Source: an uncultured Planctomycetales bacterium (lineage in GTDB: Bacteria > Omnitrophota > Gorgyraeia > Zapsychrales > JANLHA01). Taken from it: DNA of 64,000 bases. The stretch is taken from positions 64,130 through 128,129 of the forward strand of contig CAZAXH010000008.1 of NCBI GenBank assembly GCA_964489065.1, written 5' to 3'. Of this stretch, positions 3,692-24,013 are shown one piece after another (position 1 is the first letter of the stretch; each line of letters starts with the position of its first letter). The notes beneath the pieces are model-generated. The model saw nothing but the letters and a program-made list of their open reading frames with translations. It ran no database searches and was not told the DNA's origin. Both the position numbers and the translations under genes were made by a program.

Positions 3692-3742
3692 CCCGGAAAG
3701 TTTCCCCCCGTCAAAAACTAAAATTATACGAAGGATAAAACG

Positions 3743-5157: not shown

Positions 5158-5178
5158 TTTTTATCCCCCAATGGGGGA

Positions 5179-5934: not shown

Positions 5935-6123
5935 AACAGCAATCCTTTTTATGTTTTTGATACATTTTGGGTTCAAATTTTGGATTATTATAACATGGAA
6001 AAAGGAGGGGCGGTTCAAAAACATTATTATTTCTTTCCCTTAGGGATGCTTAAAGAATGTCTTAGTTCCATTATTGATATATTCATTTAAAATATTCATA
6101 ACTAGTTATTAGTGTTTGATTTA

Positions 6124-6148
6124 AAATAGTTCAAAATTAGAACTATTT
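6124..6148. promoter_or_regulatory. Perfect 9-bp inverted repeat AAATAGTTC-N7-GAACTATTT (operator-like)
   Basis: Read directly. Lies in the AT-rich 430-bp intergenic region immediately 5' of a -35-like TTGACT, upstream of the first island gene. Confidence 0.4.
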
Positions 6149-6150
6149 CC

Positions 6151-6181
6151 TTGACTTTTTGAGCCAAAATTTTAAGATAAT
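6151..6181 (+). promoter_or_regulatory. Sigma70-like promoter candidate (TTGACT-16 nt-TAAGAT/GATAAT) facing the island
   Basis: -35 TTGACT at 6151-6156 and -10 TAAGAT at 6173-6178, about 185 nt upstream of the DegT gene start at 6366. Confidence 0.35.
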
Positions 6182-6365
6182 ATAAGTAGGCTGGGGCCCT
6201 TAGCCCGTTTATAGGATACCAATAAAGCAGTATCAAGGTTTGATGCTTTAATATATAATAAGTTAACATGATATATAACTATAAATTAATTCTATGTTAT
6301 ATTAATCAAATATTATGTGGACTATGTGCCCGGGATGATCCGGGAAAAAGACATAAAAACGGGGT

Positions 6366-7421
6366 ATGATAGAACATTCCAAACCGACATTGGGGCCGCG
6401 CGAGAGACAGGCGCTCCTGAAAACTCTGGCTTCCAATTATATTGCGGAAGGCCAGGAAGTGCATTGCTTTGAAAATGAGGTGGCCGCTTATATCGGTTCC
6501 CCGGGCGCTGTCGCAACGTCCACCGGAACTTTGGGGCTCCATCTCGCACTTCTTTGCCTTGATATGAAGCCAGGGGCCGAGATCATCATCCCAAGCTACA
6601 CTTGCCGCTCTGTTTTAAACGCGGTTTCCTACTGCCGGGCTAAACCGGTGGTATGTGACGTGGAGATAGAAAATTATAATTTGTCTTTTGCGGATGTAAA
6701 AAAAAAAATGACGGCTCGCACGCAAGCGATTATTGTGCCGCATATGTTCGGGTGTCCGGCGCCGATTGACCACTTTAAAACACTGGGGGTTCCTCTTATT
6801 GAAGACTGTGCGCACGCTTTGGGCACCGAATATAAAGGGCGGAAAGCGGGCTGTTGGGGCGATTTGGCCCTGCTTTCTTTTGAAGGTACAAAATATATTG
6901 TAACGGGGGAAGGGGGGATGGTCTTAGCCAACTCTGCCCGCATGCTCAAAAGGCTCCGCAAGTTGAAGGAGGGGGATTCTCCCGATCTTCCTGCGAAATA
7001 CACGTATCGTATGACGGATTTACAGGCCGCCGTGGGACGGGTTCAACTGAGCAGGCTGGAAGATTTTATTAAGAAACGCCGGAGCATCGCCCGGGTTTAT
7101 GATAAAGCCTTCGCATCTGTGACCGAAAGGCATCCGTTGGCGCACATTGACGGCCGCCATATTTACCAGCGTTACATGGTTCAGGTCCGGGGAAACATCC
7201 GTAAACTCATGGAAGATTGCCTTCGCCAGGGGATAAAAGTGAAGCAGCCGGTCAAACCTTATCCTCTGCACCGCTATCTGGGTCTTGCCGGAGGTTTATT
7301 CCCCAACACCGAGCGTATTATGCGTTCGGCGGTCTCTATCCCGATATATCCCTCGTTAACAAAAAAAGAGATTATGCATATAACACAAATACTGCCACCC
7401 TTATTCAAGCGCTATGCCTGA
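6366..7421 (+). CDS. DegT/DnrJ/EryC1/StrS family PLP-dependent aminotransferase
   Basis: N-terminal KPTLGPRE...YIAEGQEV...TGTLGLHLAL...IIPSYTC and the FEGTKYI lysine region typical of sugar aminotransferases or dehydratases. Contains an A11 homopolymer at 6698-6708. Confidence 0.8.
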   Translation: MIEHSKPTLGPRERQALLKTLASNYIAEGQEVHCFENEVAAYIGSPGAVATSTGTLGLHLALLCLDMKPGAEIIIPSYTCRSVLNAVSYCRAKPVVCDVEIENYNLSFADVKKKMTARTQAIIVPHMFGCPAPIDHFKTLGVPLIEDCAHALGTEYKGRKAGCWGDLALLSFEGTKYIVTGEGGMVLANSARMLKRLRKLKEGDSPDLPAKYTYRMTDLQAAVGRVQLSRLEDFIKKRRSIARVYDKAFASVTERHPLAHIDGRHIYQRYMVQVRGNIRKLMEDCLRQGIKVKQPVKPYPLHRYLGLAGGLFPNTERIMRSAVSIPIYPSLTKKEIMHITQILPPLFKRYA

Positions 7422-8406
7422 TACTGAAAAAACAATTATCCCGGTTCCTGATTTGTCCCATGTTGACGCCGGCCCGTTCCCGCCCATGGTGGTTGTCGAA
7501 ATCACGAATGTCTGTAATCTGCAGTGCATCCACTGTCCGTTTTGCTATATATCAAAAGAGCCCGGGTATAAACCGTGCTATATGGCCTGGCCGCTTTATA
7601 AAAAGATCGTGGATGAGGTCGCCGGCCATCCCGGAACCATTTTTCGGCTTTTATGTGACGGAGAGCCCCTCTGCCATCCTCGGTTTATCGATATGGTCCG
7701 CTATGCTAAGACGCGGGGGGTAAGCCCGGTTAATTTTATCACCAACGGGCTTTTAATGGACGGGGCCCGGGCTGCGGCGGTGCTGGAAGCCGGAGTGGAG
7801 GCGGTTGAATTCAGCCTGGATGCGCTTAATAAGAACACATACGAGCGCATCCGGAAAGGTTCGAATTATGAAACGGTCATGCATCATGTCAAAGGCTTTA
7901 TCCGGCTGCGAGACACGTTAAAGGCTCCGACAAAAATTTTTGTCAGCATTATTGACCAGCCTGAAGCCGAAGCCGAGTTGGACGCTTTTGTCGCTTACTG
8001 GACCCCCCGTGTCGACCGGGTTATTACCCGGGCCTACACGTCCATACGGGGCCTTGTTGACCCGGCCAAGATCAAGACCGACCCGCAGATTAAACGCTGG
8101 CCCTGTCCTGACCTTTGGAGGCGTTCGTTTATCAATGTCGACGGTTTTGCCGAATTCTGCGTGGAAGATTGGCACGACCAATCCGTGGTCGGGGATATTA
8201 ACAAAACGACCCTTCAGGCCGTCTGGCAGGGTCCGGATTACGAACGGCTCCGGACCCTGCACAGGCAACGGAGGTTTCAGGAAATTCCTTATTGTGCGGG
8301 CTGTCTGGATTGGCGGGCCCGGGACTGGCATTATGATTATTTTTTGGCTTTGAGAGATACGTTAGGCTCAACGGCAGCCCCAGAGCGGCGGGAGGTGCGG
8401 CCATGA
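7414..8406 (+). CDS. Radical SAM protein with C-terminal SPASM-like cysteine-rich domain
   Basis: VVEITNVCNLQCIHCPF (CX3CX2C), GEPL motif, C-terminal CPDLW...FCVEDW...YCAGCLDW cysteines. Overlaps the DegT gene by 8 nt. Confidence 0.75.
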   Translation: MPDTEKTIIPVPDLSHVDAGPFPPMVVVEITNVCNLQCIHCPFCYISKEPGYKPCYMAWPLYKKIVDEVAGHPGTIFRLLCDGEPLCHPRFIDMVRYAKTRGVSPVNFITNGLLMDGARAAAVLEAGVEAVEFSLDALNKNTYERIRKGSNYETVMHHVKGFIRLRDTLKAPTKIFVSIIDQPEAEAELDAFVAYWTPRVDRVITRAYTSIRGLVDPAKIKTDPQIKRWPCPDLWRRSFINVDGFAEFCVEDWHDQSVVGDINKTTLQAVWQGPDYERLRTLHRQRRFQEIPYCAGCLDWRARDWHYDYFLALRDTLGSTAAPERREVRP

Positions 8407-9779
8407 CTTCACGGATTCTCCGAAAAACTCAAAGTGTCTGTCCCCGGTGTCTCGAGACCCTGGACACCTTTATCGTGGAAAAGAACGCAAAAATCGTTAT
8501 GAAAAAAACCTGCCCCCGGCATGGGCTGTTTGAAATCGTATTGTCTTCGACTCCGACTTACTACGCCGAACTCGAGGAGTATTATTTTTCCCTGGCGGAC
8601 ACTCGTTATGAAGTCCCGGAATATGAATTTTGGCCAACCTACCGGTGCAACGCTGACTGCACGATCTGCTGTTTCGGGCGGCAGAATTGGGAGATGGCGG
8701 GGCAGGACGCCTCGACGGGCGAAATTGAAAAACTGGCTAAAAACAGCAAGAAGCGTTTTTTTATTATTTCCGGGGGTGACCCGACCTGCCGGGATGACCT
8801 GGGTGATATTATAAGGACTTTTCGTAAACACGGGAAAGTCGTGACGATCAATACCAACGGCTTAAAATGCGCGGATTTAAACTACCTGAAGAAGTTGAAA
8901 AAGGCGGGCCTGGATCGACTGAATTTGCAATTTGACGGGTTTGACCCCAGATATTATCTGGCTCTGCGGCGTCAGGATTACCTGGACATCAAGCTGAAAG
9001 TTCTTGAAAACCTGCAGACTTTGGGGATTCAGACGACATTCAACGCGACCATCGCCCGGAATCTTAATGAAGGAGCGATCAAGGAATTAATGGATTTCGC
9101 CTCTTCGCACCCTTTTATCAACGGCGTTAATTTCTTTTCCATCTGTTTTCTGGGAGGGGCGAGGGACTGGGAACAAAGTTCATACATCATGCCGGATGAA
9201 ATCATTGACCTGCTCATCAGCCAAATAAGACCCGTTATTTCTAAAAAGAATGTTTTTGTTTTTCAAAAACTTCATCTGGCGGTCAAGTCGTTCCTGGCTC
9301 AGAAATGGTGCTTTTATAATCAGGTCTATCTTTTTGTCCGCAGAAACGGCTCTTTCGAGCCGATTGACCGCTTTCTCAACCTCGCTAAAGCCGAACCTTG
9401 GCTGGACCGTTACAGGGACAACTTCAAGACCAAGCCCTTCTGGGCGCGCGCCTGTCTGGGGATAGCCGTGGGGTGTCTCTTCCTGAAAAAAGAGTCCGTT
9501 ATTATTTTAAAGGAGATCCTTTTGAGGAGCGTGTCCTATTTTCTGAAGACGCGCCATTATCTTCGCGGCAGCCGGTTTTTCTCCGTGAGCTTTTCAACCG
9601 GCTGTGATCCTTATAAATTTGATTTTAACATTGTGAAACATTGCCAGAATGAAATCATCGCGGCCCGGGACCAGGACGGCGTGTTGACTCACTTAGGGAG
9701 CGACGGCCTGTATTGCATGGGGCTGGAGAAACGGTATTTGAGAAATAAACTCCAGAAAGAGGGGATGAGTTCTCGTTGA
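8403..9779 (+). CDS. Zinc-ribbon (CPxC...CPxHG) N-domain fused to a radical SAM domain; uncharacterised family
   Basis: N-terminal SVCPRCLE...KTCPRHG, then WPTYRCNADCTIC (CX3CX2C with Ile instead of the usual aromatic), ISGGDPT, and C-terminal conserved FSTGCDPYKFD and HCQNEI. ATGA overlap upstream. Confidence 0.7.
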   Translation: MTSRILRKTQSVCPRCLETLDTFIVEKNAKIVMKKTCPRHGLFEIVLSSTPTYYAELEEYYFSLADTRYEVPEYEFWPTYRCNADCTICCFGRQNWEMAGQDASTGEIEKLAKNSKKRFFIISGGDPTCRDDLGDIIRTFRKHGKVVTINTNGLKCADLNYLKKLKKAGLDRLNLQFDGFDPRYYLALRRQDYLDIKLKVLENLQTLGIQTTFNATIARNLNEGAIKELMDFASSHPFINGVNFFSICFLGGARDWEQSSYIMPDEIIDLLISQIRPVISKKNVFVFQKLHLAVKSFLAQKWCFYNQVYLFVRRNGSFEPIDRFLNLAKAEPWLDRYRDNFKTKPFWARACLGIAVGCLFLKKESVIILKEILLRSVSYFLKTRHYLRGSRFFSVSFSTGCDPYKFDFNIVKHCQNEIIAARDQDGVLTHLGSDGLYCMGLEKRYLRNKLQKEGMSSR

Positions 9780-9780
9780 T

Positions 9781-11052
9781 ATGATGAAAGCCTACCCCCG
9801 ACATTCCGTTGACATTACCTGGCGCGATTACAAGCGCATGGTTTCGTTTTTCTTCACATCCCCGGCCCGGAGGAAAGAATTCCTTCCGGAATTCGAACAA
9901 CGCTTTGCGGAATATACCGGCACCCGCTTCGCCCTGTCCGTGCCGTCCGCCCGGGTGGGGCTTTATGCGATCCTGCAGTATTTTAATTTCCCTAAAGGGG
10001 CCGAAGTTATCATCACCCCGTTCACGCACCAGAGTATTTTTACGGTCCTGAAGACGTTCCGGCTTAAGCCGGTTTTCGTCGATATCGATGAAAAGACGCA
10101 CAATATCGACCCGCACCTGGTCAGGAAATCGGTTTCGGAGAAAACCCGTCTGCTGATTTTAACTCATATGTGGGGGCAGCCCTGCGACATGGCCGCGTTC
10201 ACCGCCTTGAAAAAAGAGTACGATCTGAAAATTATTGAAGATTGCGCCATGGCCGCCGGCGCGACTTACCAGGGGCGGAAAGTGGGGAGTTTCGTCGATG
10301 CCAGCATATTCAGCTTCGGGAAAGCTAAGGCCATTTGCGCTTTCGGCGGCGGGATGCTGTGCTGCCATGACGCCTCCATGAAGGATTTTATCTCCGGCCT
10401 GATCCGGGATTTTAAGCCCTCCCGGAGCCTGCCGCTGGCGGTTTCCGTCATTAATTCCGTGATCGCCAATATCCTGACCCGGCCCCGCTTTTTTTTCTTC
10501 TCCCTTTATCCGGTGATGCGGCTTTTCAACCTGCGGGATCCCTACAATCCGGTTGAACATAAAAAAGACTCCGAAGTCATCCTGGAGCAGATGCCGGAAG
10601 AATGGAAAGTCAAAATGTCGCCGTTTCAGGCCGCCCTGGGGCTGGAACAGCTCCGGAGCCTGGACGCCCGTAACCAGGCCCGGGCCCGTAACGCGCAGCT
10701 TTTGAACTTTTTGTTGGAGGGGACGCCGGGGATCAGTGTGCCCCGGCCGCAACCCGGAGGTAATCATATTTATCTTTACTACGCGGTTCATATACAGAAC
10801 GCCGCTTCTCTGGACGCCCTTAGGTTGAGCTTGCTGAAGCGTTCGGTCGACACGCAATTAAATGAGTTGACGACTCCCCGGCAGCTGCGTGTTTTCGGGG
10901 CGGACAGCCGGACGGTCCCTGTTTTTGAAACCATATCCGCGAATATCCTTGTCATCCCCAACGGGATTTATTTAAATGACCGGGATATCCGGCTTGTGGC
11001 GGAGGCGTTAAAACAGAGCCTGAGGTCCCTTCCGGGGAAGGGGGATGCATGA
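9781..11052 (+). CDS. DegT/DnrJ/EryC1-like PLP-dependent aminotransferase (divergent)
   Basis: ALSVPSARVGLYAIL, IITPFTH, ILTHMWGQPCDM, IIEDCAMA and FSFGKAKAI (lysine) arrangement typical of the family. Confidence 0.65.
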   Translation: MMKAYPRHSVDITWRDYKRMVSFFFTSPARRKEFLPEFEQRFAEYTGTRFALSVPSARVGLYAILQYFNFPKGAEVIITPFTHQSIFTVLKTFRLKPVFVDIDEKTHNIDPHLVRKSVSEKTRLLILTHMWGQPCDMAAFTALKKEYDLKIIEDCAMAAGATYQGRKVGSFVDASIFSFGKAKAICAFGGGMLCCHDASMKDFISGLIRDFKPSRSLPLAVSVINSVIANILTRPRFFFFSLYPVMRLFNLRDPYNPVEHKKDSEVILEQMPEEWKVKMSPFQAALGLEQLRSLDARNQARARNAQLLNFLLEGTPGISVPRPQPGGNHIYLYYAVHIQNAASLDALRLSLLKRSVDTQLNELTTPRQLRVFGADSRTVPVFETISANILVIPNGIYLNDRDIRLVAEALKQSLRSLPGKGDA

Positions 11053-12431
11053 AAACGGCCCGGCCATCCCGCTCGATATTACGGACAACGGAAAGCGTCT
11101 GCCCGAAATGTTCCGCGCCCCTGCCCGCCAGTATTGTCGCGGATGAAAAAGGCGTGTTTATGGAGAAACGCTGCCCGCAGCATGGAGATTTTCGCGTGCG
11201 CCTGTCCGAAACCCCGGCCTTGTACGCCGAACTGGACGGGTTTTACTGTTCCCTGATGGGGCGGGCGCAACCTTGTTTTGATTATGAAATCTGGCCCACC
11301 CTGCGGTGCAATATGAATTGCGCGATATGTTTTTTCGGCTGTCCGCGGGAATCTTCCCGGGTTTTTGAGCCGACGCTCAACGCCATCGAACAGTTCGTCA
11401 GCCGGGACCCGCACCCGTTTTACTGCCTCTCCGGAGCGGAAGCGACTGTCCGGGATGATTTGCCGGATATCATCCGTATTTTAAAAAAGCACCGGAAAGT
11501 CGTGACGTTGAACACTAACGGAATGCGTTTCGAGGATGAATCTTATCTGTTAAAACTGAAGAACGCCGGGCTGGACCGGGTTATTTTGCAATGCGATGGT
11601 TTTGATCCCCGTGTTTCCCTGAAGATGAGGGGAGAGGATGCTGTCCCCCAACGGCAGCGTGTCTTGGCCCTCTTGGAAAAGCATCATATGCCGACCGCGC
11701 TCAGTTCCACGATCGCCCGGGGCCTCAACGAACATACGGTTTCGGAATTGCTGGATTACGCGCTGGCGCATCCTTTCATCAACGGGATCGCGTTTCTGTC
11801 CATCGCCTTTGACGGCGGGGCCCGGAACTGGAGCCAGGAGCGCTACATGATGCCGGATGAAGTGATCGACGTTGTCTGCCGTGTCCCCGGCTATAACGTA
11901 AAAAAAGAAAACGTGCACAGATTTCAAAAGCTGCATTTCGCCGTCAAGGCGTTCTTGAAGCAGCGCGCGTGTTTATATAATCAGCTTTATGTCCTGGTGC
12001 GCCGGCGGGGTTCCTTTGAGCCTATTGACGCTTTCATGAATCTCGCTAAAGCCGAGCCCTGGCTGGACCGTTACCGGCACGCTTACGCGGGGAAGAAACA
12101 CGGCCTGGCCGCTCTTTATCTGGGGCTGGCTTTGCTATGCCTGTGCTGCCATCGCCGGATTTTAGTCCTGTTCCGGGACCTTCTCGGCTCGGGGGTGTCT
12201 TATTTCTTCCGGACGTCACGATATCTAAGAACAGGCCGACTGCTTGCTTTAAGTTTTACGACCAGCTGCGACCCGTATAAGCTCGACAAGACAATCCTCC
12301 AGAATTGTCAGAATGAAATTATGGCCGCGGATCAAACACCGGACTCTTTACGCCCTATCGGAAGGGAAGGCGCCTATTTCGTGAACCTGGAAAAACATTA
12401 CGCTGAATCTCAACCCCGGGGGGAACCATGA
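11049..12431 (+). CDS. Zinc-ribbon-radical SAM family protein (paralog of 8403-9779)
   Basis: SVCPKCSAPLP...KRCPQHG, WPTLRCNMNCAIC, LSGAEAT, TSCDPYKLD, NCQNEI. ATGA overlaps on both sides. Confidence 0.7.
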   Translation: MKTARPSRSILRTTESVCPKCSAPLPASIVADEKGVFMEKRCPQHGDFRVRLSETPALYAELDGFYCSLMGRAQPCFDYEIWPTLRCNMNCAICFFGCPRESSRVFEPTLNAIEQFVSRDPHPFYCLSGAEATVRDDLPDIIRILKKHRKVVTLNTNGMRFEDESYLLKLKNAGLDRVILQCDGFDPRVSLKMRGEDAVPQRQRVLALLEKHHMPTALSSTIARGLNEHTVSELLDYALAHPFINGIAFLSIAFDGGARNWSQERYMMPDEVIDVVCRVPGYNVKKENVHRFQKLHFAVKAFLKQRACLYNQLYVLVRRRGSFEPIDAFMNLAKAEPWLDRYRHAYAGKKHGLAALYLGLALLCLCCHRRILVLFRDLLGSGVSYFFRTSRYLRTGRLLALSFTTSCDPYKLDKTILQNCQNEIMAADQTPDSLRPIGREGAYFVNLEKHYAESQPRGEP

Positions 12432-15184
12432 AACCTGACACGATCATTCGCGCGACGCAAAGCGTTTGCCCTGTATGCCTGGAAGCCGTGCCCGCGACGG
12501 TGCTTGAGAAAGACGGCCGGGTTTACCTGACTAAGACCTGCCCCCGGCACGGGGCCTCCGAAGTCCTTCTGTCTGAGACCGCGGGTCTTTACAAAGAACT
12601 GGAAGGCTTTTTTTCCGCCGTTATGAACCCGTCTTACCGCATCCGCGAATATGAAATCTGGGTGACAATGCGCTGCAACACGTCTTGCACCATCTGTCAT
12701 CTCGGAGACAGCAACAGGATCGACATCCCGGACCCGAGCCTGGAAAAAATCGAGGAGTTTATCCTCCGGCATGACCAGCCGGCTTATATCCTTTCTGGGG
12801 GAGAGCCCACCTGCCGGGAAGACCTGCCGGATATTGTCCGCCTTTTTAAAAAGCACGGCAAGCATATCAGCCTGCACACGAACGGTCTGGCTTTAGGGAA
12901 CAAAGATTACATCCGTTCCCTGCAGGAAGCGGGGTTGGACCGGATCAATCTTCAATTTGACGGGTTCGCGCCGGACGCGTATAAAATTTTCCGGGGGAAA
13001 AATATCCTGGATAAGAAGCAACTGGCTTTAAAAAACCTGGAAGACCTGCGTCTGCCGACGGATTTGAATATCACGGTTGCCCGGGGTGTCAATGAGCCGG
13101 CCGTCATGGACAGCGTCCGGTTTGCCGTTAAACATCCTTTCATCTCTTCCGTTAACTTCTTCACGATCTGCTACCTGGGAGAAACGGCCCGATGGCCTTT
13201 AAAATATTTCCTTATGCCGGATACGATCGGAGACATCCTGGAAAAAGAAACAGGCGGCCGGATTTCCAAGCGCGGCATCATCCTTTTTCAGAAACTGCAC
13301 CTGGCCGTTAAATCCCTGCGTTCGGAGCGTTATTGCCTTTACAGCCAGATTTTTGTCCTGTTCCGAAAACGGGACGGGACGTATGACCCCATTGACCGCT
13401 ATCTTAACCTGGAACGGACGGACAGGCTTCTGAAACTTTATCAAAAAATGGCTCCCGGGCATCCTGTCCTCGCCAAAATAATTTTAATTTTAGGCCTGCC
13501 GTTTTTTATGATGCGCTGGTCCACGCTGGTGATCCTGAAAGAAATCTTGCGGACCGGATTTTCTTTTATGATCAACGAGGATTACGCTTTAAAAACCAGC
13601 CCGTTCCTTTATTTGAATTTTAATACGAGCTGTGATCCTTATAAAATCGATTACGGGTTCGTGCAGGATTGTCAGGATGAAATCATTTTTTATGACCGTC
13701 AGCAGGAACACTTGGTGAACCAGGGAGTGGACGGATTGCGCGCCATCGAGTTCGAGCGCCGCTACCGTAAGGCCGCCCCCAAGGAGACGATTCGCATTGA
13801 TCGGAAAATGGAAACATCCCAGAGGCATAAGCCTGCCGGCTTGGGCAACCGTGTCATTCGGGAGACAATGAGCGTGTGTCCTGTTTGCCTGGCCCCGCTC
13901 CCGGCCAGGATCCGGGCCGGAGCGGATGGCGTTTATCTGGAAAAGACATGCCCCCGGCACGGGGCCTTTCGCGTTTTTGTTTCGACTCATCCGGATGATT
14001 ATCAGGCCCTGTCCGACACTTATTTTTATTTTATCCCCGGGGCTCTGGAACAACGGGAATATTACGTCTGCGCGAGCACGCGGTGCAACATTTCGTGCCC
14101 GATTTGTTACCTGAATTATTGCCCTGAGCGGCCTCCTCTGACGCCCGAGGATATGAACAGCGCCGTGGGGGATAAACCGCAGGTGGAGCGCTTCACGTTT
14201 TCCCACGGCGAGCCCACGGTCTCTCCGCAACTGCCGGAGATGATCCGGGCTTTAAAGAAAGCCGGGAAATTTGTCAACATTCATACGAACGGCGTGAAAC
14301 TTGCCGATTATGCTTATACTCAATCCCTGAAACAGGCGGGGCTGGATCACGTGAGCCTCCAGTTTGACGGTTTTCGTGATGAAATTTATGAGACCCTGAG
14401 AGGCGGGAAGCTCTTGGAGGCCAAAACGCGCGCTTTGGATAATCTTAAGGCGCTGGAAATCCCCGTGACATTAAACGTGACGATCGCCGGGGGCGTTAAT
14501 GAAGACGAGTGGGGCAAAGTTTTTGATTACGTTGTCCGGAATGATTTTATTAAAGACGTGAGTTATATCACTTACTGCCATTACTCCCCTCAGGGGGATG
14601 CCGAGGGCCGGTCCATGATGCCGGACGACCTGGTGATACGCCTCGTGGAGCATTCTCAAGGGACGATTGAGAGGGAGGATGTGGTCTGTTTTCAGAAATT
14701 GTTTTACGCCTATTTAAGCGCCTTCCGCAAGAAAAAATGCTTTAACTATTATCATTATTGCGTTGTGCGGACATCCGGCGGATACCGTGGGATTGAGCGT
14801 TATCTGGATGTGCGGAAGATCGCCGGGAAGATTGACGCGTGCCGGGAGAGAGGACAAACGATGACGAAAACGTTGTTGCTGAAAATATTGTTAACCTCTC
14901 TGCGATGGGATAGTGTGGCGTTGATTCCTTACGGATTATTTTTGCTGTCGCGCGGGGGGTATCCCCCAAGCCCCGGGAAACTTTTAGTCGTGACGTTGGC
15001 CAGTATCTGCGACCCGTATAAATATGACGCAACGGTCGCCTTAAATTGCGGGCAGGGCATTATTACTCAAACCATGCAACATGAGAGTTACGGGACATAT
15101 ATTATCGAGGAGATGAAGCGTTCGCCGCGTCCCGACGCAGCTCGTGTCCTGCCTGACGCGTTTCCTCAAGGGGGTTCGGTATAA
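12428..15184 (+). CDS. Didomain fusion: two tandem zinc-ribbon-radical SAM modules in one 918-aa ORF
   Basis: Module 1 has SVCPVCLEAVP...KTCPRHG, MRCNTSCTIC, LSGGEPT, TSCDPYKID, DCQDEI. Module 2 starts near aa 470 (about 13835) with SVCPVCLAPLP...KTCPRHG, STRCNISCPIC, FSHGEPT, SICDPYKYD, NCGQGI. There is no stop between the modules. Confidence 0.7.
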   Translation: MKPDTIIRATQSVCPVCLEAVPATVLEKDGRVYLTKTCPRHGASEVLLSETAGLYKELEGFFSAVMNPSYRIREYEIWVTMRCNTSCTICHLGDSNRIDIPDPSLEKIEEFILRHDQPAYILSGGEPTCREDLPDIVRLFKKHGKHISLHTNGLALGNKDYIRSLQEAGLDRINLQFDGFAPDAYKIFRGKNILDKKQLALKNLEDLRLPTDLNITVARGVNEPAVMDSVRFAVKHPFISSVNFFTICYLGETARWPLKYFLMPDTIGDILEKETGGRISKRGIILFQKLHLAVKSLRSERYCLYSQIFVLFRKRDGTYDPIDRYLNLERTDRLLKLYQKMAPGHPVLAKIILILGLPFFMMRWSTLVILKEILRTGFSFMINEDYALKTSPFLYLNFNTSCDPYKIDYGFVQDCQDEIIFYDRQQEHLVNQGVDGLRAIEFERRYRKAAPKETIRIDRKMETSQRHKPAGLGNRVIRETMSVCPVCLAPLPARIRAGADGVYLEKTCPRHGAFRVFVSTHPDDYQALSDTYFYFIPGALEQREYYVCASTRCNISCPICYLNYCPERPPLTPEDMNSAVGDKPQVERFTFSHGEPTVSPQLPEMIRALKKAGKFVNIHTNGVKLADYAYTQSLKQAGLDHVSLQFDGFRDEIYETLRGGKLLEAKTRALDNLKALEIPVTLNVTIAGGVNEDEWGKVFDYVVRNDFIKDVSYITYCHYSPQGDAEGRSMMPDDLVIRLVEHSQGTIEREDVVCFQKLFYAYLSAFRKKKCFNYYHYCVVRTSGGYRGIERYLDVRKIAGKIDACRERGQTMTKTLLLKILLTSLRWDSVALIPYGLFLLSRGGYPPSPGKLLVVTLASICDPYKYDATVALNCGQGIITQTMQHESYGTYIIEEMKRSPRPDAARVLPDAFPQGGSV

Positions 15185-15188
15185 AATT

Positions 15189-16751
15189 ATGAAGATCGCC
15201 TTTATTAATGATTCCTGTGAACGGCTGGGTGTTGAATATATTTCAGCCGTGCTTAAACAGCATGGGCACACCGTCAAATTGTTCGCCGATCCGCAGCTCT
15301 TTGATGACGAAAATTTTACAATCGCGCCTCTGGCCAGGTTTTTTGACCGGCAGGAAGACCTGCTGGCCCAAATTCAGGCGTTCCAGCCGGATCTGATCGG
15401 GTTCTCGGTCGTGACGGACTTTTATCAGTGGGCCTGCCGCCTCGCCAGGCGTATCAAAGCGGTGATGGATGTCCCGGTGCTTTTCGGAGGGATTCACGCG
15501 ACATCGGTTCCCGAAAAGGTCCTGCAGCAGGATTGCGTGGATATGGTCTGCCGGGGGGAAGGGGAGTTCGCCCTTTTGGACCTCGCCGACAGCATGGAGA
15601 AGGGCCTCCGGGATTACACGATCCCCAACATTTGGTTTAAAAAAGACGGTGCGATCATCAGGAATGATGCGCGTCCCCTGATCGAGGACCTGGATGCGCT
15701 GCCGTTCGCGGATAAAGACCTTTTTTATGAGGCCAGCCCCCATTTTTCCCGTTGCTATTTCCTGATGACCAACCGCGGCTGCGCTTACGCCTGCAGTTAT
15801 TGCTGTAATTCATTCCTGAAAAAATTTTATCATGCGAAAGGCCGGTACCTGCGTTTCCGCAGCGCCGGAAACGTGATCCGGGAGTTGACCCTGGCCAAAC
15901 AGAAATACGGCATTAAAATGGTCCGTATCCACGATGATGACTTCCTCACGCACGACGTGCCCTGGTTCGAGGAGTTCGCGGAAGAATACTCCCGGCATAT
16001 ACAGGCCCCGTTCGCATGCTTCACGCACCCCAACAGCGTGACGGAAACCAAAGCCCGCCTGCTGAAGAAAGCAGGGTGCCACGATATCGAAGTGGGGGTC
16101 CAGTCCATCTCCTCGGACACGCGTTACCGGATTCTTAACCGCCGCGTTTCGGATGAGCAATTGGTCCGCGCTCTGCAGATATTAAAAGACGCGGGCATCA
16201 AGGTGATCACGGATAATATCCTGGGGCTTCCTCACCAGGGGCGGGAGGAGCTTCTGGATCTCATTAAATTTTATAATAAAAACAGGATCATGAAGATTTA
16301 CTGTTTCGGCTTCCGGCATTATCCGGCCACGGATATCGTCGAATATTCCAGGGACGAGAAACTGCTGAGCGCACAGGATGTCGAGAACCTGGAGAACGGG
16401 ATCAATGTCAAGACCTTCATTCAGAGCGGGGATAATTTGAGCCGTGAGGACCGGCAACTGCAGACATTTTTTGCGTTTCTGCTCTACCTGCCGGAGACGG
16501 TCAATAATTACATCCTTGAGAAAAAGCTGTACCGTTATTTTATCCCGCTCCCGTATTATGTCCTGGTTATCTTTTCCAATTGGCTGCGCATCCCGTACCG
16601 GTACAACTGGGCGCTGCATATTACCGTGTGCCGGTACCGGGTTTATGCTTATAAAACGATAAAGAAAAAGTTTACCTCGGGTATCAGGGCGTTGCTTAAA
16701 AAGTTCCGCCCTTCGGCCTTTAACACGGCGCGGGGGACGCCTGTCCGGTGA
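15189..16751 (+). CDS. Predicted B12-binding-domain radical SAM protein (MKIAF subfamily, paralog 1 of 7 in tandem)
   Basis: N-terminal Rossmann-like MKIAFINDSCERLGVEYISAVLKQHGH, then NRGCAYACSYCCNS (CX3CX2C) and DLDALPFADKDLFY. Start chosen at the ATG just after the upstream stop, with AGGGGG about 15 nt upstream. Confidence 0.7.
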   Translation: MKIAFINDSCERLGVEYISAVLKQHGHTVKLFADPQLFDDENFTIAPLARFFDRQEDLLAQIQAFQPDLIGFSVVTDFYQWACRLARRIKAVMDVPVLFGGIHATSVPEKVLQQDCVDMVCRGEGEFALLDLADSMEKGLRDYTIPNIWFKKDGAIIRNDARPLIEDLDALPFADKDLFYEASPHFSRCYFLMTNRGCAYACSYCCNSFLKKFYHAKGRYLRFRSAGNVIRELTLAKQKYGIKMVRIHDDDFLTHDVPWFEEFAEEYSRHIQAPFACFTHPNSVTETKARLLKKAGCHDIEVGVQSISSDTRYRILNRRVSDEQLVRALQILKDAGIKVITDNILGLPHQGREELLDLIKFYNKNRIMKIYCFGFRHYPATDIVEYSRDEKLLSAQDVENLENGINVKTFIQSGDNLSREDRQLQTFFAFLLYLPETVNNYILEKKLYRYFIPLPYYVLVIFSNWLRIPYRYNWALHITVCRYRVYAYKTIKKKFTSGIRALLKKFRPSAFNTARGTPVR

Positions 16752-16761
16752 AACAAGATAA

Positions 16762-18114
16762 ATGTCTATGAAAACTTATTTCATAAGCGCGTCGACATTC
16801 TGCATGGAACGGATGCTGGACTGCCAGCAGGTTTCCGATTATCTCAAGTTGAACGGCTGGCGTCCGGTGACGCGGGTTCGGCAGGCCGGGCTGGTCATCA
16901 TAAGCACCTGCTCGTTCGGGCGCGAAGAGGACGCGAGCTCCCTGGATTATATCCGTTATTTTCTGCGGAAGAAATCGCCCCGGGCCCGTTTCCTGATTAT
17001 GGGGTGCCTTCCGGTGATCAACCCCGACTTATTATCTTCTTATCAGGATATTCCCGTGCTCACACCGACCACTTTATCCCGGATCGAAACCGTGGCCCCT
17101 CCGGAGAGGACCCGGTTCGCGGATGTCCCGGAACCCAATAAAATTTTGGCGACAGAAGTCACGCACAGTGTTTTTCTGAAAAAAGCGTTAAGTTTCCGTT
17201 CCGCGTTCAGGCAGGGCCTCCGGTGTTTTAAGCCTGATGTAGCGACGTTGCGGCGGGGGCTGTCCTTCCTGAAAGCCGCGGTGCGTTATGTCCCGGTTAT
17301 GAAGGCGCACATTAACCCGTTCTTATCCTGTAACCGGAACGGATTTTATTATTTGAGATTATCCAAGGGCTGCCTGGGGAACTGCAGTTACTGCGCTAAA
17401 AGACATTCGACAGGGACCTTGCAGAGCAAATCCACAACCTCTATCCTCGATGAATTCCGCGCCGGGCTCAGGGCCGGGGAAAAGCAGTTTTATTTATTGA
17501 CGGAAGACGTCGGCTGTTACGGGGCCGACCGGCACACAGATATCGTAGCCTTGTTGAAAAATCTTTTTGAAGCCGGGGAGAGGCATGATTTCCGGATTGT
17601 CCTGTCCAATTTCAATGCCCGGTGGTTCGTGCGGTATTATGAGGACCTGGAGCCGGTCTTGATCCGGAATCAGAACAAAATTTTGTATCTGCAAATACCG
17701 ATCCAGTCAGGCAGCACCCGCATCCTGGAATTCATGAACCGGCATTACACCATTGAAGACGTGGAATCCCGGCTCCTGACTTTAAGAAAGAACGCCCCGG
17801 CGGTCGCCTTCACGACCGATATCATCGCCGGATTCCCGGGGGAAACGGATGAGGATTTTGAACTCACCAAGAAGTTTTTGTCGAAAATACGTTTTCAGCA
17901 CGTTGATATTTTCGCTTACGAAAAACGCCCCGGCACTAAAGCGGGAACGCTTCCCGGGGACGTCCCCCCGGAGATCATCGAAGCCCGTGTCCTGCAGTTG
18001 GCCCGGCTTCAGAACAGCTATCACCGGGGCCCCATGCTTGCTAAAAAAGTGCTGGATGTTATCCGGGAAAACCTGCAGCGCTACCGGAATAAAGCCGTGA
18101 CCCGTACGCCATGA
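16762..18114 (+). CDS. MiaB/RimO-like radical SAM methylthiotransferase family protein
   Basis: N-terminal MTTase-like domain with LVIISTCSF, rSAM motif LSKGCLGNCSYCAKRHSTG, and ITDIIAGFPGETDEDF typical of the MTTase C-terminal region. Confidence 0.6.
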   Translation: MSMKTYFISASTFCMERMLDCQQVSDYLKLNGWRPVTRVRQAGLVIISTCSFGREEDASSLDYIRYFLRKKSPRARFLIMGCLPVINPDLLSSYQDIPVLTPTTLSRIETVAPPERTRFADVPEPNKILATEVTHSVFLKKALSFRSAFRQGLRCFKPDVATLRRGLSFLKAAVRYVPVMKAHINPFLSCNRNGFYYLRLSKGCLGNCSYCAKRHSTGTLQSKSTTSILDEFRAGLRAGEKQFYLLTEDVGCYGADRHTDIVALLKNLFEAGERHDFRIVLSNFNARWFVRYYEDLEPVLIRNQNKILYLQIPIQSGSTRILEFMNRHYTIEDVESRLLTLRKNAPAVAFTTDIIAGFPGETDEDFELTKKFLSKIRFQHVDIFAYEKRPGTKAGTLPGDVPPEIIEARVLQLARLQNSYHRGPMLAKKVLDVIRENLQRYRNKAVTRTP

Positions 18115-19625
18115 CAAAACAAGGCCTGAGAATTGCTTTTGTGAATGATTCCTGCGAGCATTTGGGGGTTGAATATATCTCCGCCGTGCTGAAATCCGCA
18201 GGGCATGATACCCGTCTATTCGTTGACCCGCTTTTGTTTGATGATGAATTTATCACCGTTAAGGGGCTCAGCCGCCGCTTTGATTACACTAAGAAGATTA
18301 TCCGGGACCTCAGGGCTTATCAGCCGGATCTGGTCAGCCTGTCGGTGGTCTCAAGCTTCTATCCCTGGGCCGGCCGGATGGCCCGGGCTATAAAGGCGGA
18401 GATGGACGTCCCCGTTATCATGGGCGGTATTCATCCGACATCCGTTCCCGAAAGTGTCATCCAGAACGACGCCGTGGATATGGTCTGCCTGGGGGAAGGG
18501 GAATACCCCCTGCTGGAACTTGCCGACAGTATGGCCCGGGGAAGTATCGACGACACCGTAAAAAACATCTGGTTTAAAAAGAACGGGAAGATCCTGCGCA
18601 ACCCTTTGCGGCCGCTTATCGACGATTTAGATGCCCTCCCGTTTCCCGATAAAGACCTTTATTATTCCGTCAGCCCGCATTTTTCAAAAAGTTATTATAT
18701 CGCGACCAGCAGAGGCTGCCCCAACGCCTGCAGTTATTGCTGTAATTCTTACCTGCATTCTTTGTACAAGGGCCTGGGCGCGCCGCGGCGGTCGCGCAGC
18801 GTCCGGAATGTCATTGAAGAATTAATGTGGGCCCAAAACCGTTACCGGATCGATCCGGTTTTCTTCCTGGATGACTGTTTCGGGACCGATTTGGGATGGT
18901 TAAAAAAATTCGCGACGGAGTACCGAGAAAAAGTCGGCGTTAAGTTTTACTGCATGATGTTCCCCGCACCCCAGATGGAAGAGGCGGTTGAATATCTCGC
19001 GCAGGCCGGCTGCGGGGAAATCGAGATCGGCGTCCAGTCCTGGGATGAAGATGTCAGGCGCCGGATATTCAACCGGCGCGTTTCGAACGACACGATGATC
19101 CGGACGATGAAATTGATCAGGAAGGCGGGGATCAATCTCGTGACAGGCGATATCCTCGGTTATCCCGGGCAGAAAGAGGAGCATATTTTAAAAACCGCGG
19201 AGATTTACACAGACATAAAACCCAGCCGGACGTACGCTTTTATCCTGAAATATTTTCCCAAAACGGAGATCACGGAACAGGCGCTGCAGAACGGATGTCT
19301 GAGTCCGGCGGATCACGAAAAAATATTGGACGGCCATTACGGCAAATACTTATCGAAAGACGGCTCCATGACAGAGAGGGATGTCATGCAATATCTGCTT
19401 CTATTTTTGCTGGTGCGTATTTTACCGGTCTCTTGGGCCAAGACAGTAATCCGGAAAAAATTTTATAAGCGTTTCCCGGTTTTGTTCACGCCGGCCGTGA
19501 TTTCAATCCTGAATAATTTTTCGACATCCACCTTTGAATCGCAGGTCAACCGGAAAAGCGCCCTGGCACGGTACACTTTTTTCATTAAACGATTGTTTTC
19601 TAAATCCAAAGCAGGTGCGCGATGA
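18111..19625 (+). CDS. Predicted B12-binding radical SAM protein (MKIAF subfamily, paralog 2)
   Basis: LRIAFVNDSCEHLGVEYISAVLKSAGH, SRGCPNACSYCCNS. ATGA overlap with the upstream gene. Confidence 0.7.
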   Translation: MTKQGLRIAFVNDSCEHLGVEYISAVLKSAGHDTRLFVDPLLFDDEFITVKGLSRRFDYTKKIIRDLRAYQPDLVSLSVVSSFYPWAGRMARAIKAEMDVPVIMGGIHPTSVPESVIQNDAVDMVCLGEGEYPLLELADSMARGSIDDTVKNIWFKKNGKILRNPLRPLIDDLDALPFPDKDLYYSVSPHFSKSYYIATSRGCPNACSYCCNSYLHSLYKGLGAPRRSRSVRNVIEELMWAQNRYRIDPVFFLDDCFGTDLGWLKKFATEYREKVGVKFYCMMFPAPQMEEAVEYLAQAGCGEIEIGVQSWDEDVRRRIFNRRVSNDTMIRTMKLIRKAGINLVTGDILGYPGQKEEHILKTAEIYTDIKPSRTYAFILKYFPKTEITEQALQNGCLSPADHEKILDGHYGKYLSKDGSMTERDVMQYLLLFLLVRILPVSWAKTVIRKKFYKRFPVLFTPAVISILNNFSTSTFESQVNRKSALARYTFFIKRLFSKSKAGAR

Positions 19626-21136
19626 AAATCGCTTTTGTCAACGATTCATCCCAGCAGCTGGGTATACAATATATTTCGGCCGTCCTTAAACAGCACGGCC
19701 ATGACGTGAAGCTGTTCATGGACCCCCAGTTATTCGATGACGATGTGATCCGGGTCCCCCGATTGAGCCGGTGGCTTGATTCCAAGAAAGAGCTTGTCCG
19801 GCGTCTGAAAGCCTATCAGCCCGACTTGGTCGGGATCTCCGTGGTGACGGATTTTTACCAGTGGGCCCGCCGGATCGCCACGATGATCAAGGAAGAAATG
19901 GATGTCCCGATTATCGCCGGCGGAATCCACCCGACATCCGTTCCCGAGAGAGTGCTGAAAAACGATTGTTTTGACATGGTGTGTCTGGGAGAAGGGGAGT
20001 TTGCTTTGTCGGAACTGGCCGACAATATGCAGAAGGGAACGCCTGACTACACGATCCGTAATATCTGGTTCAAACGGGACGGCCAAATCATAAAAAATGA
20101 ACTCCGGCCGCTTATCGATGACCTGGACGACCTGCCCTTTCCGGATACGGACTTGTATTATTCCGCCAGTCCTCATTTTAAAAGGACCGGCCTGTACGTT
20201 ACCATGACTTCTCGCGGCTGTCCGAACGCCTGCACGTACTGCTGTTTTTCTTACCTGCAGGGGCTTTACAAAGGGAAAGGGAAAAGGATCCGGCAGCGCA
20301 GCGTCGGCAATGTCATGAGTGAATTGCGGACCAACAAGGAAAAATACAACATCAAGTTCGTCGCGTTTATGGACAATTGTTTCGGGTATGATTCGAAATG
20401 GTTGCGGGAATTTGCGCCCGTTTATCAGGCGGAGATCGGGATTAAATTCTGGTGCATCATGCATCCCAAGGATGTCACGGAAGAAACCCTGAAGCATTTG
20501 AAGCGGGCCGGGTGCCACACGATTGACATGGGGGTGCAGTCGTGGAACGAGCGCATCCGCAAGGAGGTCCTGCACCGGGATGTCGGGAATGACACGATGG
20601 CCCGCGCGATCCTCCTGGTCAAGAATGCGGGGATCGAAATCATGACCGACAGCATTTTCGACCTTCCCGGGCAAACGGAAGACGACATCCTGGAAAGTGC
20701 CCGCCGTTATGCGGAAATCCGGCCCAAGCGGATATATTTTTACATGCTCCGGCATTACCCCAACACCCTGATTACCCGGATGGCGAAGGAGGATAATCTT
20801 CTGACCTCATCCCGGTATGAAGAAGTGATGGACGGGGTGAACGTCACGTCTTTCACCATCGGAGGCGACAAGGTCAATAAAGACATGATCCGGTTTCAGA
20901 TCCTGTTTTATCTGATCGATTTGATCCCCAAACGGATGAGCTTGTTTATCATCCGCAGGAGACTGCACCGGTATTTCCCTCTCATGTTCGGCCCCGCCAT
21001 GATCGTGATCCTGCGTAATTTGCTGGCCTTTGACATGAACGCCCGGCTTCAGCGCGCCTGGGCCTTTAACCGTTACGCGCATTTTATCTGGGAGAAAATC
21101 CGTCCCGTCCGAAAATGCCGGGGACATCAGCCATGA
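19622..21136 (+). CDS. Predicted B12-binding radical SAM protein (MKIAF subfamily, paralog 3)
   Basis: MKIAFVNDSSQQLGIQYISAVLKQHGH, SRGCPNACTYCCFS. ATGA overlap. Confidence 0.7.
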   Translation: MKIAFVNDSSQQLGIQYISAVLKQHGHDVKLFMDPQLFDDDVIRVPRLSRWLDSKKELVRRLKAYQPDLVGISVVTDFYQWARRIATMIKEEMDVPIIAGGIHPTSVPERVLKNDCFDMVCLGEGEFALSELADNMQKGTPDYTIRNIWFKRDGQIIKNELRPLIDDLDDLPFPDTDLYYSASPHFKRTGLYVTMTSRGCPNACTYCCFSYLQGLYKGKGKRIRQRSVGNVMSELRTNKEKYNIKFVAFMDNCFGYDSKWLREFAPVYQAEIGIKFWCIMHPKDVTEETLKHLKRAGCHTIDMGVQSWNERIRKEVLHRDVGNDTMARAILLVKNAGIEIMTDSIFDLPGQTEDDILESARRYAEIRPKRIYFYMLRHYPNTLITRMAKEDNLLTSSRYEEVMDGVNVTSFTIGGDKVNKDMIRFQILFYLIDLIPKRMSLFIIRRRLHRYFPLMFGPAMIVILRNLLAFDMNARLQRAWAFNRYAHFIWEKIRPVRKCRGHQP

Positions 21137-23980: not shown

Positions 23981-24013
23981 ACCAGGGGGATGAAGGTCGG
24001 CAAGGATAAGGTT

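What the first reader, a model, noticed from the sequence alone, without database searches (positions are those of the whole stretch)
12428..15184. Natural fusion of two zinc-ribbon-rSAM modules in a single 918-aa ORF
Both halves carry a complete set of family motifs, and there is no stop or frameshift at the junction (about 13800-13860). Neighbouring paralogs are single-module genes joined by ATGA overlaps. The fusion therefore probably arose by loss of one such junction, and it suggests the modules act as homo- or hetero-dimers.
Basis: seen in the sequence. Interest (0 to 1): 0.6.

Follow-up and report, generated by a model that had tools for sequence, protein, structure and literature searches.

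The report
One-base deletion fuses two rSAM genes
The 918-residue open reading frame is really there, but it exists only because this one strain lacks a single A in a short A-run where two neighbouring radical-SAM genes overlap; a 99.93 %-identical strain and every other relative keep two separate genes, so it is a very young (or possibly artefactual) fusion and says little about how the enzymes work.

Summary
Window 12428-15184 (+) is an uninterrupted 918-aa ORF with two complete modules, each a CX2CX20CX2H zinc-ribbon/rubredoxin motif, a CX3CX2C radical-SAM motif and three conserved C-terminal Cys.

The fusion is not a conserved architecture:
- A conspecific contig (Logan SRR21822500) is 99.93 % identical over 12.7 kb. 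Its only indel is one extra A at window 13805 (A5 versus A4). That allele encodes two genes of 467 aa and 462 aa.
- Two other Omnitrophota lineages (88 % and 81 % nt identity) and further lineages are also split. Their module-1 TAA stop is conserved, and module 2 starts at a conserved AAGGAG-TTG, so the two genes overlap by 35 nt.
- No two-module protein appears among 1.84 billion representatives or the 118 family hits.

The A4 allele occurs in two assemblies, with no other frame-breaking indel nearby. I therefore favour a genuine, very recent strain-level deletion (about 0.7) over a sequencing artefact (about 0.22).

The ancestral junction was not an ATGA overlap. The dimer inference is unsupported: the fusion is too young to argue from, and the closest solved relative, GDGT-MAS, was purified as a monomer.

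[quoted passage not shown] Interest is low. The surrounding 45-kb cluster of about 20 rSAM domains is the more remarkable feature.

The parts
12428..15184 (+). 918-aa fused ORF (module 1 + linker + module 2)
   Evidence: The exact protein is also on an NCBI contig (138,674 nt) and on Logan SRR15237810_11095.
12428..13807 (+). Module 1 (aa 1-460). Its ortholog is a separate 467-aa gene in relatives.
12467..12550 (+). Module 1 zinc-ribbon/rubredoxin-like motif C14-X2-C17-X20-C38-X2-H41
   Evidence: The spacing matches the GDGT-MAS motif C9X2C12X20C33X2H36.
12674..12697 (+). Module 1 radical-SAM CX3CX2C motif (CNTSCTIC, C83/C87/C90)
13781..13786 (+). AAGGAG Shine-Dalgarno-like hexamer, 10 nt upstream of TTG 13797. 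GGAG is invariant in the window, L001 and L002 (L001 reads CAGGAG).
13797..13799 (+). TTG, the start codon of module 2 in all split relatives (products begin MIGK...). In the window it is out of frame and opens only a 24-codon ORF, which ends at TGA 13869-13871.
13805..13808 (+). A4 run, the site of the 1-nt deletion. The conspecific strain (AAAAATGG) and L001 (AAAAACGG) have A5. L002 has GGGAAAAC, one base longer than the window over the same interval. The last A begins in-frame ATG 13808 (M461).
13828..13830 (+). TAA, the conserved stop codon of module 1 in all split relatives. It is out of frame in the window because of the deletion.
13808..15184 (+). Module 2 (aa 461-918). Its ortholog is a separate 462-aa gene in relatives.
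13877..13960 (+). Module 2 zinc-ribbon/rubredoxin-like motif C484-X2-C487-X20-C508-X2-H511
14084..14107 (+). Module 2 radical-SAM CX3CX2C motif (CNISCPIC, C553/C557/C560)

Best explanation
The ancestral and otherwise universal state is two adjacent, translationally coupled genes for diverged paralogs (32 % identity) of a short Tes/GDGT-MAS-like radical-SAM family. Module 1 is 467 aa and ends at TAA. Module 2 is 462 aa and starts at an SD-preceded TTG 35 nt upstream of that stop. In the strain represented by this window, one A was lost from an A5 run inside that overlap. The loss puts the module-1 reading frame into the module-2 frame before the TAA is reached. The last 7 residues of module 1 (NGNIPEA) and the first 4 of module 2 (MIGK) are lost, and a 918-aa chain results in which all conserved residues of both modules survive, joined by a basic, probably flexible tail of about 35 residues. 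I judge the deletion to be a genuine, very recent strain-level mutation that is tolerated because it falls in the one short zone where a frameshift does no damage. Each module is inferred to act as it did before: an independent radical-SAM enzyme with a rubredoxin-like metal site, the SAM-cleaving [4Fe-4S] cluster and a three-Cys C-terminal auxiliary cluster, working on a hydrophobic or glycolipid-type substrate of the surrounding cluster. The fusion forces 1:1 stoichiometry and proximity, but it is not evidence of an obligate dimer. Shown: the ORF, the motifs, the 1-nt difference, the split state of all relatives, and the presence of the fused allele in two assemblies. Inferred: that the allele is biological and not a read-level error, that the fused protein is functional, and the chemistry.
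For: - Conspecific comparison: Logan SRR21822500_10155 is 99.93 % identical over window 7687-20353. It differs by 6 substitutions (5 synonymous) and a single indel, an extra A at 13804/5. It encodes 467 aa + 462 aa.
- L001/L005 (88 % nt) and L002/L006 (81 % nt) are one base longer at the same spot and are split. Inserting one A in the window recreates a 467-aa module 1 ending at the same TAA and a 462-aa module 2 from TTG.
- The 12 neighbouring genes (6366-25540) match their orthologs full-length in one frame; only this ORF changes frame. In 9.2 kb aligned to L001, the junction gap is the only frame-changing indel in coding DNA.
- The fused allele is in two assemblies: an NCBI contig of 138,674 nt and a Logan per-run assembly of SRR15237810. 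The Logan contig is 100 % identical to the window over at least 17 kb.
- Location argument: the zone in which a -1 deletion gives an open fusion is 110 nt, or 0.87 % of the 12.7-kb shared contig. It holds 2 of 118 homopolymer runs of 5 nt or more, and the stretch has only 57 non-coding nt. A selection-filtered real indel is expected there. A random error would land there about 1-2 % of the time.
- Real indels are common in unconstrained DNA between the window and L001: 6 in about 570 intergenic nt.
- No other two-module protein exists among 1.84e9 representatives or 118 family hits, so the fusion is derived and young.
Against: - The change is a single-base length difference in a homopolymer, the classic context for sequencing or assembly indels. 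Reads could not be inspected.
- The two assemblies with A4 are 100 % identical and probably derive from the same sample, so they are not independent of a systematic read error.
- Restoring the A makes the adjacent C-to-T change synonymous in module 1 (AAC to AAT) and regenerates the ancestral stop and start exactly, which is what one expects if the true sequence is A5.
- There is no expression, proteomic or functional evidence for the 918-aa protein.
Confidence: 0.7

Rival explanations
1. Sequencing or assembly artefact. The organism really has A5 and two genes, as its 99.93 %-identical relative does. One A was dropped in the consensus of this dataset, producing a spurious 918-aa ORF.
For: - The difference is a homopolymer-length change of exactly one base.
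- Restoring it reproduces the ancestral 467 + 462 aa genes, stop and start exactly.
- The fused form is confined to one sample-level sequence.
- Every other lineage is split.
Against: - There is no other frame-breaking indel in about 19 kb or 12 genes compared with orthologs, and none in 12.7 kb compared with the conspecific contig, so the assembly is not error-prone.
- A4 was called by two different assembly pipelines.
- A random homopolymer error would hit the fusion-permissive zone only about 1.7 % of the time (2 of 118 runs).
- From my own knowledge, not tested here: a 69-kb de Bruijn-graph contig implies accurate short or HiFi reads, in which A4/A5 miscalls are rare.
Confidence: 0.22
2. 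Functionally selected Rosetta-stone fusion. Modules 1 and 2 form an obligate heterodimer, or pseudo-dimer, and the fusion was fixed because it improves assembly or stoichiometry.
For: - Module-1-type and module-2-type genes are adjacent in all relatives examined, including distant ones at 45-48 % aa identity in L003, L008, L010 and L011.
- In the split form the genes overlap by 35 nt, consistent with translational coupling.
- Another fusion in the same kind of cluster, B12-rSAM::Zn-ribbon-rSAM (P0001), is reproducible in three assemblies.
Against: - The fusion is absent from a strain 99.93 % identical and from all other lineages. It is therefore younger than 6 substitutions in 12.7 kb, with no sign of fixation or conservation.
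- In the distant relatives the gene order is reversed (module 2 then module 1) with about 125 nt between the genes, which argues against a constrained N-to-C arrangement.
- GDGT-MAS, the closest solved homolog, was purified as a monomer.
- No two-module architecture occurs anywhere else.
Confidence: 0.05
3. Reversible switch. The A-run acts as a slipped-strand contingency tract that toggles the population between fused (A4) and split (A5) forms.
For: Both alleles exist in near-identical genomes, and the difference is a homopolymer length.
Against: From general knowledge: known phase-variable tracts are usually 7 nt or longer, and a run of 4-5 A slips rarely. L002 has GGGAAAAC at the site, so the tract itself is not conserved. 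Only one fused instance is known.
Confidence: 0.02

Closest known systems
GDGT-MAS / Tes tetraether lipid synthase (MJ0619; PDB 7TOL/7TOM; NCBIfam NF045702)
   Same: It is the best solved-structure match (E 6.8e-44). The N-terminal rubredoxin-type motif is identical, CX2CX20CX2H. It shares the CX3CX2C radical-SAM core and a C-terminal region with conserved Cys, and both carry the Pfam PF23545 + PF04055 architecture.
   Different: - Each module is about 460 aa, against 526 aa for the solved chain.
- The modules lack the N-terminal auxiliary [4Fe-4S] domain (C73/C77/C80 + His): the alignment is gapped there and there is no Cys between the ribbon and the rSAM motif in module 1.
- Scores are far below the equivalog cutoff: 143-153 bits per single module and 266 for the double, against 450.
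- The host is bacterial (Omnitrophota), with no evidence for tetraether lipids.
- GDGT-MAS is a single-module monomer.
TrsS radical SAM (seleno)protein (NCBIfam NF045646)
   Same: It is the top NCBIfam hit for every module, and its length is similar (441-aa profile).
   Different: All scores are well below the 490-bit cutoff (150-182 for single modules, 319 for the double). No in-frame TGA interrupts the 918-aa ORF, so it encodes no selenocysteine. The gene context is different.
Gene fusion of adjacent overlapping genes by a frameshifting indel (general mechanism of gene fusion/fission in prokaryotes)
   Same: A 1-nt deletion within a gene overlap removes the stop from the reading frame and joins two ORFs. 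Both domains stay intact.
   Different: Here both alleles are seen side by side in 99.93 %-identical genomes, so the event is unusually well resolved. The partners are paralogs of one family, which gives a tandem-module protein not otherwise recorded.
P0001: B12-binding rSAM::Zn-ribbon rSAM fusion (950 aa) in a reduced version of the same cluster (L012-L014)
   Same: It is a fusion between radical-SAM enzymes of the same biosynthetic system. It sits beside homologs of the window's SPASM rSAM, B12-rSAM, GT2 and YfhO-like genes.
   Different: It joins two different rSAM classes, not two paralogous Zn-ribbon modules. It is reproduced in three assemblies from different samples.

Membership tests
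Zn_ribbon_HMPTM + Radical_SAM architecture (Pfam PF23545 + PF04055) | N-terminal zinc-ribbon domain above the gathering score, followed by a Radical_SAM domain | tested here: met
   Two stretches of each in the 918-aa ORF: PF23545 at 125 bits (cutoff 27) and PF04055 at 146 bits (cutoff 29.5).
Tes / GDGT-MAS tetraether lipid synthase (NF045702) | Score at or above the NCBIfam equivalog cutoff (450 bits) | tested here: not met
   265.8 bits for the two modules together; 143-153 bits for the single-module paralogs.
Tes / GDGT-MAS tetraether lipid synthase (NF045702) | Rubredoxin-type CX2CX20CX2H metal site | tested here: met
   C14/C17/C38/H41 and C484/C487/C508/H511 have the same spacing as C9/C12/C33/H36 of MJ0619.
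Tes / GDGT-MAS tetraether lipid synthase (NF045702) | N-terminal auxiliary [4Fe-4S] domain (C73, C77, C80 + His) between the rubredoxin and RS domains | tested here: not met
   The alignment to 7TOL is gapped across this insert. Module 1 has no Cys between C38 and C83, and module 2 has only C548 there.
Tes / GDGT-MAS tetraether lipid synthase (NF045702) | C-terminal auxiliary [4Fe-4S] cluster domain and catalytic Tyr459 | tested here: inconclusive
   Three Cys are invariant across the five modules (C303/C402/C415 and equivalents). The sequence alignment to 7TOL ends at residue 336, so the ligand correspondence was not established.
Tes / GDGT-MAS tetraether lipid synthase (NF045702) | Csp3-Csp3 coupling of lipid tails | not testable with these tools
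   This needs biochemistry. The function of bacterial Tes homologs is stated to be unconfirmed in PMC11868695.
TrsS radical SAM (seleno)protein (NF045646) | Score at or above the equivalog cutoff (490 bits) | tested here: not met
   318.8 bits for the double module; 150-182 bits for the single modules.
Conserved natural gene fusion (Rosetta-stone type) | The fused state is shared by orthologs in other strains or species | tested here: not met
   Split in the conspecific SRR21822500 contig, L001/L005, L002/L006, and the P0158 and P0025 lineages. No two-module protein among 1.84e9 representatives.
Conserved natural gene fusion (Rosetta-stone type) | The fused allele is supported by raw reads | not testable with these tools
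   Only assemblies were available. A4 is present in two assemblies, NCBI and Logan SRR15237810.

The most novel reading that the evidence does not exclude
The A4 allele is real and the 918-aa protein is made and active. That would make this a newborn gene fusion still segregating against its unfused allele in natural populations: a natural experiment in which two paralogous Tes-like radical-SAM enzymes are covalently tethered. If the fused form were favoured, it would imply that the two modules cooperate physically, for example by acting on the two ends or two chains of one lipid-like substrate. Such cooperation has not been described for this family.
Probability: 0.1. Interest if true: 0.5.

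Novelty: new variant of a known kind. Interest (0 to 1): 0.22.

Why it matters
As a clue to mechanism it matters little. The fusion is confined to one strain and is younger than a handful of point mutations, so it cannot be used to argue that these enzymes dimerise. It should not be propagated in annotation as a conserved two-module architecture.

It does have modest value as a cleanly resolved example of how overlapping, translationally coupled genes become fused by a single-base slip. Both alleles are available for comparison.

It is also a warning for automated domain-architecture surveys, because one-base homopolymer differences create apparently novel architectures.

The more promising subject is the surrounding system. 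It is a cluster of about 45 kb with about 20 radical-SAM domains plus aminosugar, glycosyl-transfer and membrane genes. A reduced version of it elsewhere carries a different, reproducible rSAM-rSAM fusion.

Tried and rejected
- Pseudo-dimer modelling. I built an MSA with the fused protein first and 87 homologs. MAFFT stacked all 87 on the first half, which left the second half without depth and gave no paired information. An AlphaFold2 model would have been uninformative about any inter-module interface, so I did not run it.
- First word-indexed search with the whole 918-aa query. It gave only two hits. The alignment-based search and the full HMMER scan were needed.
- Programmed ribosomal frameshifting or transcriptional slippage in the split relatives as a route to a fused product. 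I rejected this. Passing from the module-1 frame to the module-2 frame needs a +1 shift, CGG-AAA-AAC is not a canonical slippery heptamer, and A5 is too short for efficient transcriptional slippage (general knowledge; sequence).
- Recent tandem duplication as the origin. Rejected, because the halves are only 32 % identical and each is closer to other paralogs or orthologs.
- Error-prone assembly. Rejected as a general property: there are no other frame breaks in 12 neighbouring genes or in 12.7 kb against the conspecific contig.
- Literature searches for the run accessions, for Omnitrophota rSAM clusters and for TrsS. Nothing bore on this locus.
- L007 (90 % relative). It ends before the junction and is uninformative.
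Full report
**Observation**

Window 12428-15184 (+) is a single ATG-initiated ORF of 918 codons without a stop.
- Pfam finds two Zn_ribbon_HMPTM (PF23545) and two Radical_SAM (PF04055) stretches.
- An alignment of the two halves with the three single-module paralogs in the window (8403-9779, 11049-12431, 22637-23980) shows that each half is a complete module, from an initiator-like Met to the C-terminal tail.
- Invariant residues are the CX2CX20CX2H ribbon, the CX3CX2C radical-SAM motif and three C-terminal Cys.
  - Module 1: C14/C17/C38/H41, C83/C87/C90, C303/C402/C415.
  - Module 2: C484/C487/C508/H511, C553/C557/C560, C771/C861/C874.
- The halves are only 32 % identical, so this is a junction of old paralogs and not a fresh duplication.
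- ATGA overlaps between neighbouring genes are real, at 8403, 11049, 12428, 18111, 19622 and 25537.

**What the junction looks like in relatives**

A scan of one genome per species found two Candidatus Omnitrophota MAGs with syntenic loci. L001 is 88 % identical at the nucleotide level and L002 is 81 %.
- In both, the region is two ORFs: a 467-aa module 1 and a separate module 2 in another frame.
- At the protein level, the 12 other genes between 6366 and 25540 match their orthologs full-length in a single frame. The 918-aa ORF alone switches frame near residue 460 in both relatives.
- The DNA alignment pinpoints the cause. The window reads GATCGG-AAAATGG, L001 reads GATCGGAAAAACGG and L002 reads GATAGGGAAAACGG. 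The window is one base shorter, inside an A-run (A4 at 13805-13808).
- Across 9.2 kb aligned to L001 there are only four gap events. One is intergenic, two form an in-frame +3/-3 pair, and the fourth is this one.
- Inserting one A in silico gives a 467-aa module 1, exactly the length of both orthologs, ending at the same conserved TAA (window 13828-13830). It also gives a 462-aa module 2 starting at TTG 13797, 10 nt downstream of a conserved AAGGAG.
- PGAP, JGI and Logan/Prodigal gene calls in several lineages all start module 2 at this codon, with products beginning MIGK.

So the ancestral junction was a 35-nt overlap between the two genes, not an ATGA.

**The decisive comparison**

Exact-sequence look-ups show that the 918-aa protein is on record on two contigs: an NCBI contig of 138,674 nt and Logan SRR15237810_11095 of 68,873 nt. 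The Logan contig is 100 % identical to the window over every stretch examined, 3781-20751.

A third contig, Logan SRR21822500_10155 (12,668 nt), carries the identical upstream and downstream neighbour proteins. It is 99.93 % identical to window 7687-20353.
- It has six substitutions. Five are synonymous and one is K235Q.
- It has exactly one indel, an extra A at 13804/5.
- It encodes 467 + 462 aa.

The fused and split forms are thus alleles within one species that differ by one base.

**Breadth**

- A full HMMER scan of 1.84 billion representative proteins returned 10,732 hits. The top 150 are single modules matching either residues 5-451 or residues 474-899. The few long hits have other architectures.
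- A profile search of the 5.8-billion set gave 118 family members of 254-628 aa, none with two ribbons.
- Module-1 orthologs at 77-100 % identity are all 466-467 aa.
- More distant relatives at 45-48 % identity (L003, L008, L010, L011) also keep the two module types adjacent. There the order is reversed, the genes are separate, and about 125 nt lie between them.

The fusion is therefore derived, unique and very young.

**Real allele or artefact?**

Reads were not available, so this is inferred.

For an artefact:
- The difference lies in a homopolymer.
- Restoring one A regenerates the ancestral genes exactly, and it makes the neighbouring C-to-T change synonymous in module 1 (AAC to AAT).
- The two A4 assemblies probably share a sample.

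For a real deletion:
- The assembly shows no other frame break in 12 neighbouring genes or in 12.7 kb against the conspecific contig.
- Two different pipelines called A4.
- The location fits a real event. A -1 deletion yields an open fusion only within a 110-nt zone, which is 0.87 % of the shared contig and holds 2 of its 118 homopolymer runs of 5 nt or more. Only 57 nt of that 12.7 kb are non-coding. A random error would land in that zone about 1-2 % of the time, whereas an indel that has survived purifying selection is expected almost nowhere else.
- Real indels are frequent in unconstrained DNA between the window and L001, with 6 in about 570 intergenic nt.

I put a real allele at about 0.7 and an artefact at about 0.22.

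**Consequences for the protein (inferred)**

- The frameshift replaces only the last seven residues of module 1 (NGNIPEA) and drops the first four of module 2 (MIGK).
- The two modules are joined by a poorly conserved, basic segment of about 35 residues (...EFERRYRKAAPKETIRIDRKMETSQRHKPAGLGNRVIR...).
- All conserved residues persist, so the chain is plausibly functional with each module acting as before.
- The conserved SD-TTG now opens a 24-codon ORF that ends at TGA 13869-13871. That stop overlaps ATG 13868 (M481) as an ATGA. In principle this could allow some re-initiation of a slightly truncated module 2, but that is speculation.

**Family placement**

- The closest solved structure is GDGT-MAS/Tes from M. 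jannaschii (7TOL, E 6.8e-44). It shares the rubredoxin motif spacing exactly.
- The modules lack the N-terminal auxiliary-cluster insert.
- They score far below the equivalog cutoffs for Tes (143-153 bits per single module against 450) and TrsS (150-182 against 490).
- They are a shorter, uncharacterised bacterial branch of the family and not Tes or TrsS proper.
- GDGT-MAS was purified as a monomer (PMC9433317).
- The function of bacterial Tes homologs is stated to be experimentally unconfirmed (PMC11868695).

**Dimer inference**

- A fusion that is absent from a strain differing by six substitutions has not been tested by selection. It cannot serve as Rosetta-stone evidence.
- Conserved adjacency and the translational coupling implied by the 35-nt overlap suggest the two paralogs work in one pathway, perhaps in fixed proportion. 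Nothing here shows physical association.
- A structure model that could address the question needs a paired alignment, which the tools could not build.

**Context**

The ORF lies in a plus-strand cluster of about 45 kb (about 6366-51000) with about 20 radical-SAM domains.
- Radical-SAM genes: five Zn-ribbon modules, nine B12-binding rSAMs, one MiaB-like, one SPASM and four others.
- Other genes: three DegT aminotransferases, GT2, WbqC, PMT_2, a YfhO-like membrane protein, LPG_synthase_TM, AsnB-like and methyltransferase genes.
- A reduced version elsewhere (L012-L014) contains homologs of the SPASM rSAM, B12-rSAMs, Zn-ribbon rSAMs, GT2 and the YfhO-like protein. It carries a different fusion, B12-rSAM::Zn-ribbon-rSAM, which is reproduced in three assemblies.

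**Verdict**

The ORF is real in the sequence. The natural-fusion reading is only partly right: the fusion comes from a single-base deletion in a gene overlap, it is strain-specific, and it may be an artefact. The dimer inference is unsupported. Interest is low, at 0.22.

Noticed in passing
window 6366-51000 (mostly + strand): An extraordinarily rSAM-dense cluster with about 20 radical-SAM domains in about 45 kb. These are 5 Zn-ribbon Tes-like modules, 9 B12-binding rSAMs, 1 MiaB-like, 1 SPASM and 4 others at 36259-37674(-), 42134-43612, 43609-44613 and 47599-49071. The cluster also has 3 DegT aminotransferases, GT2, WbqC, PMT_2, YfhO-like, LPG_synthase_TM, AsnB-like and methyltransferase genes. 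Its product is unknown. The aminosugar, glycosyl-transfer and membrane genes suggest a heavily tailored glycolipid or surface glycan.
   Followed up: partly
L012 10001-12853 (also L013, L014): P0001 is a 950-aa fusion of a B12-binding rSAM (N-terminal) with a Zn-ribbon rSAM module (C-terminal). It sits in a reduced version of the same cluster, with homologs of window 7414 SPASM, 15189 B12-rSAM, 22637 module, 31303 GT2 and the 32915 YfhO-like gene. It is identical in three assemblies from different samples, so that fusion looks genuine and links the two rSAM classes functionally.
   Followed up: partly
L003, L008, L010, L011 (e.g. L010 6001-7281 and 7407-8726): In relatives at 45-48 % aa identity (L003 is a Planctomycetales MAG; the others are metagenome contigs), the module-2-type gene precedes the module-1-type gene. 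This is the reverse of the window order. The genes are in different frames and about 125 nt apart.
   Followed up: partly
window 13797-13871: The conserved SD-TTG start of module 2 is now out of frame. It opens a 24-codon ORF (LIGKWKHPRGISLPAWATVSFGRQ*) whose TGA overlaps ATG 13868 (M481) as an ATGA. This could be a re-initiation route to a separate, N-terminally shortened module 2.
   Followed up: no
window 3246-6085 vs L001 5034-5040: L001 lacks about 2.8 kb present in the window. The missing stretch holds the ARMT1-like gene 3743-4609, a 183-aa AAA/ABC-like fragment 4606-5157 and the minus-strand 281-aa ORF 5179-6024. L001 also has two 1-nt gaps and a 36-nt gap in its copy of the ParA/NUBPL-like gene (window 2864-3691).
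   Followed up: no
window 13130, 13180, 13927 (within the fused ORF): Three of the six substitutions that separate the window from the conspecific SRR21822500 contig fall in the fused ORF, which is 22 % of the compared length. They include the only non-synonymous one, K235Q. This is a marginal enrichment that I did not test further.
   Followed up: no
P0047 (771 aa) and P0087 (982 aa) from the representative search: The family has other fusion architectures. In these two, a Zn-ribbon rSAM module is preceded by a long N-terminal extension. In P0087 it is followed by a region containing a DKTGTLT motif, which suggests a P-type ATPase. I saw this by eye only and did not scan it against Pfam.
   Followed up: no
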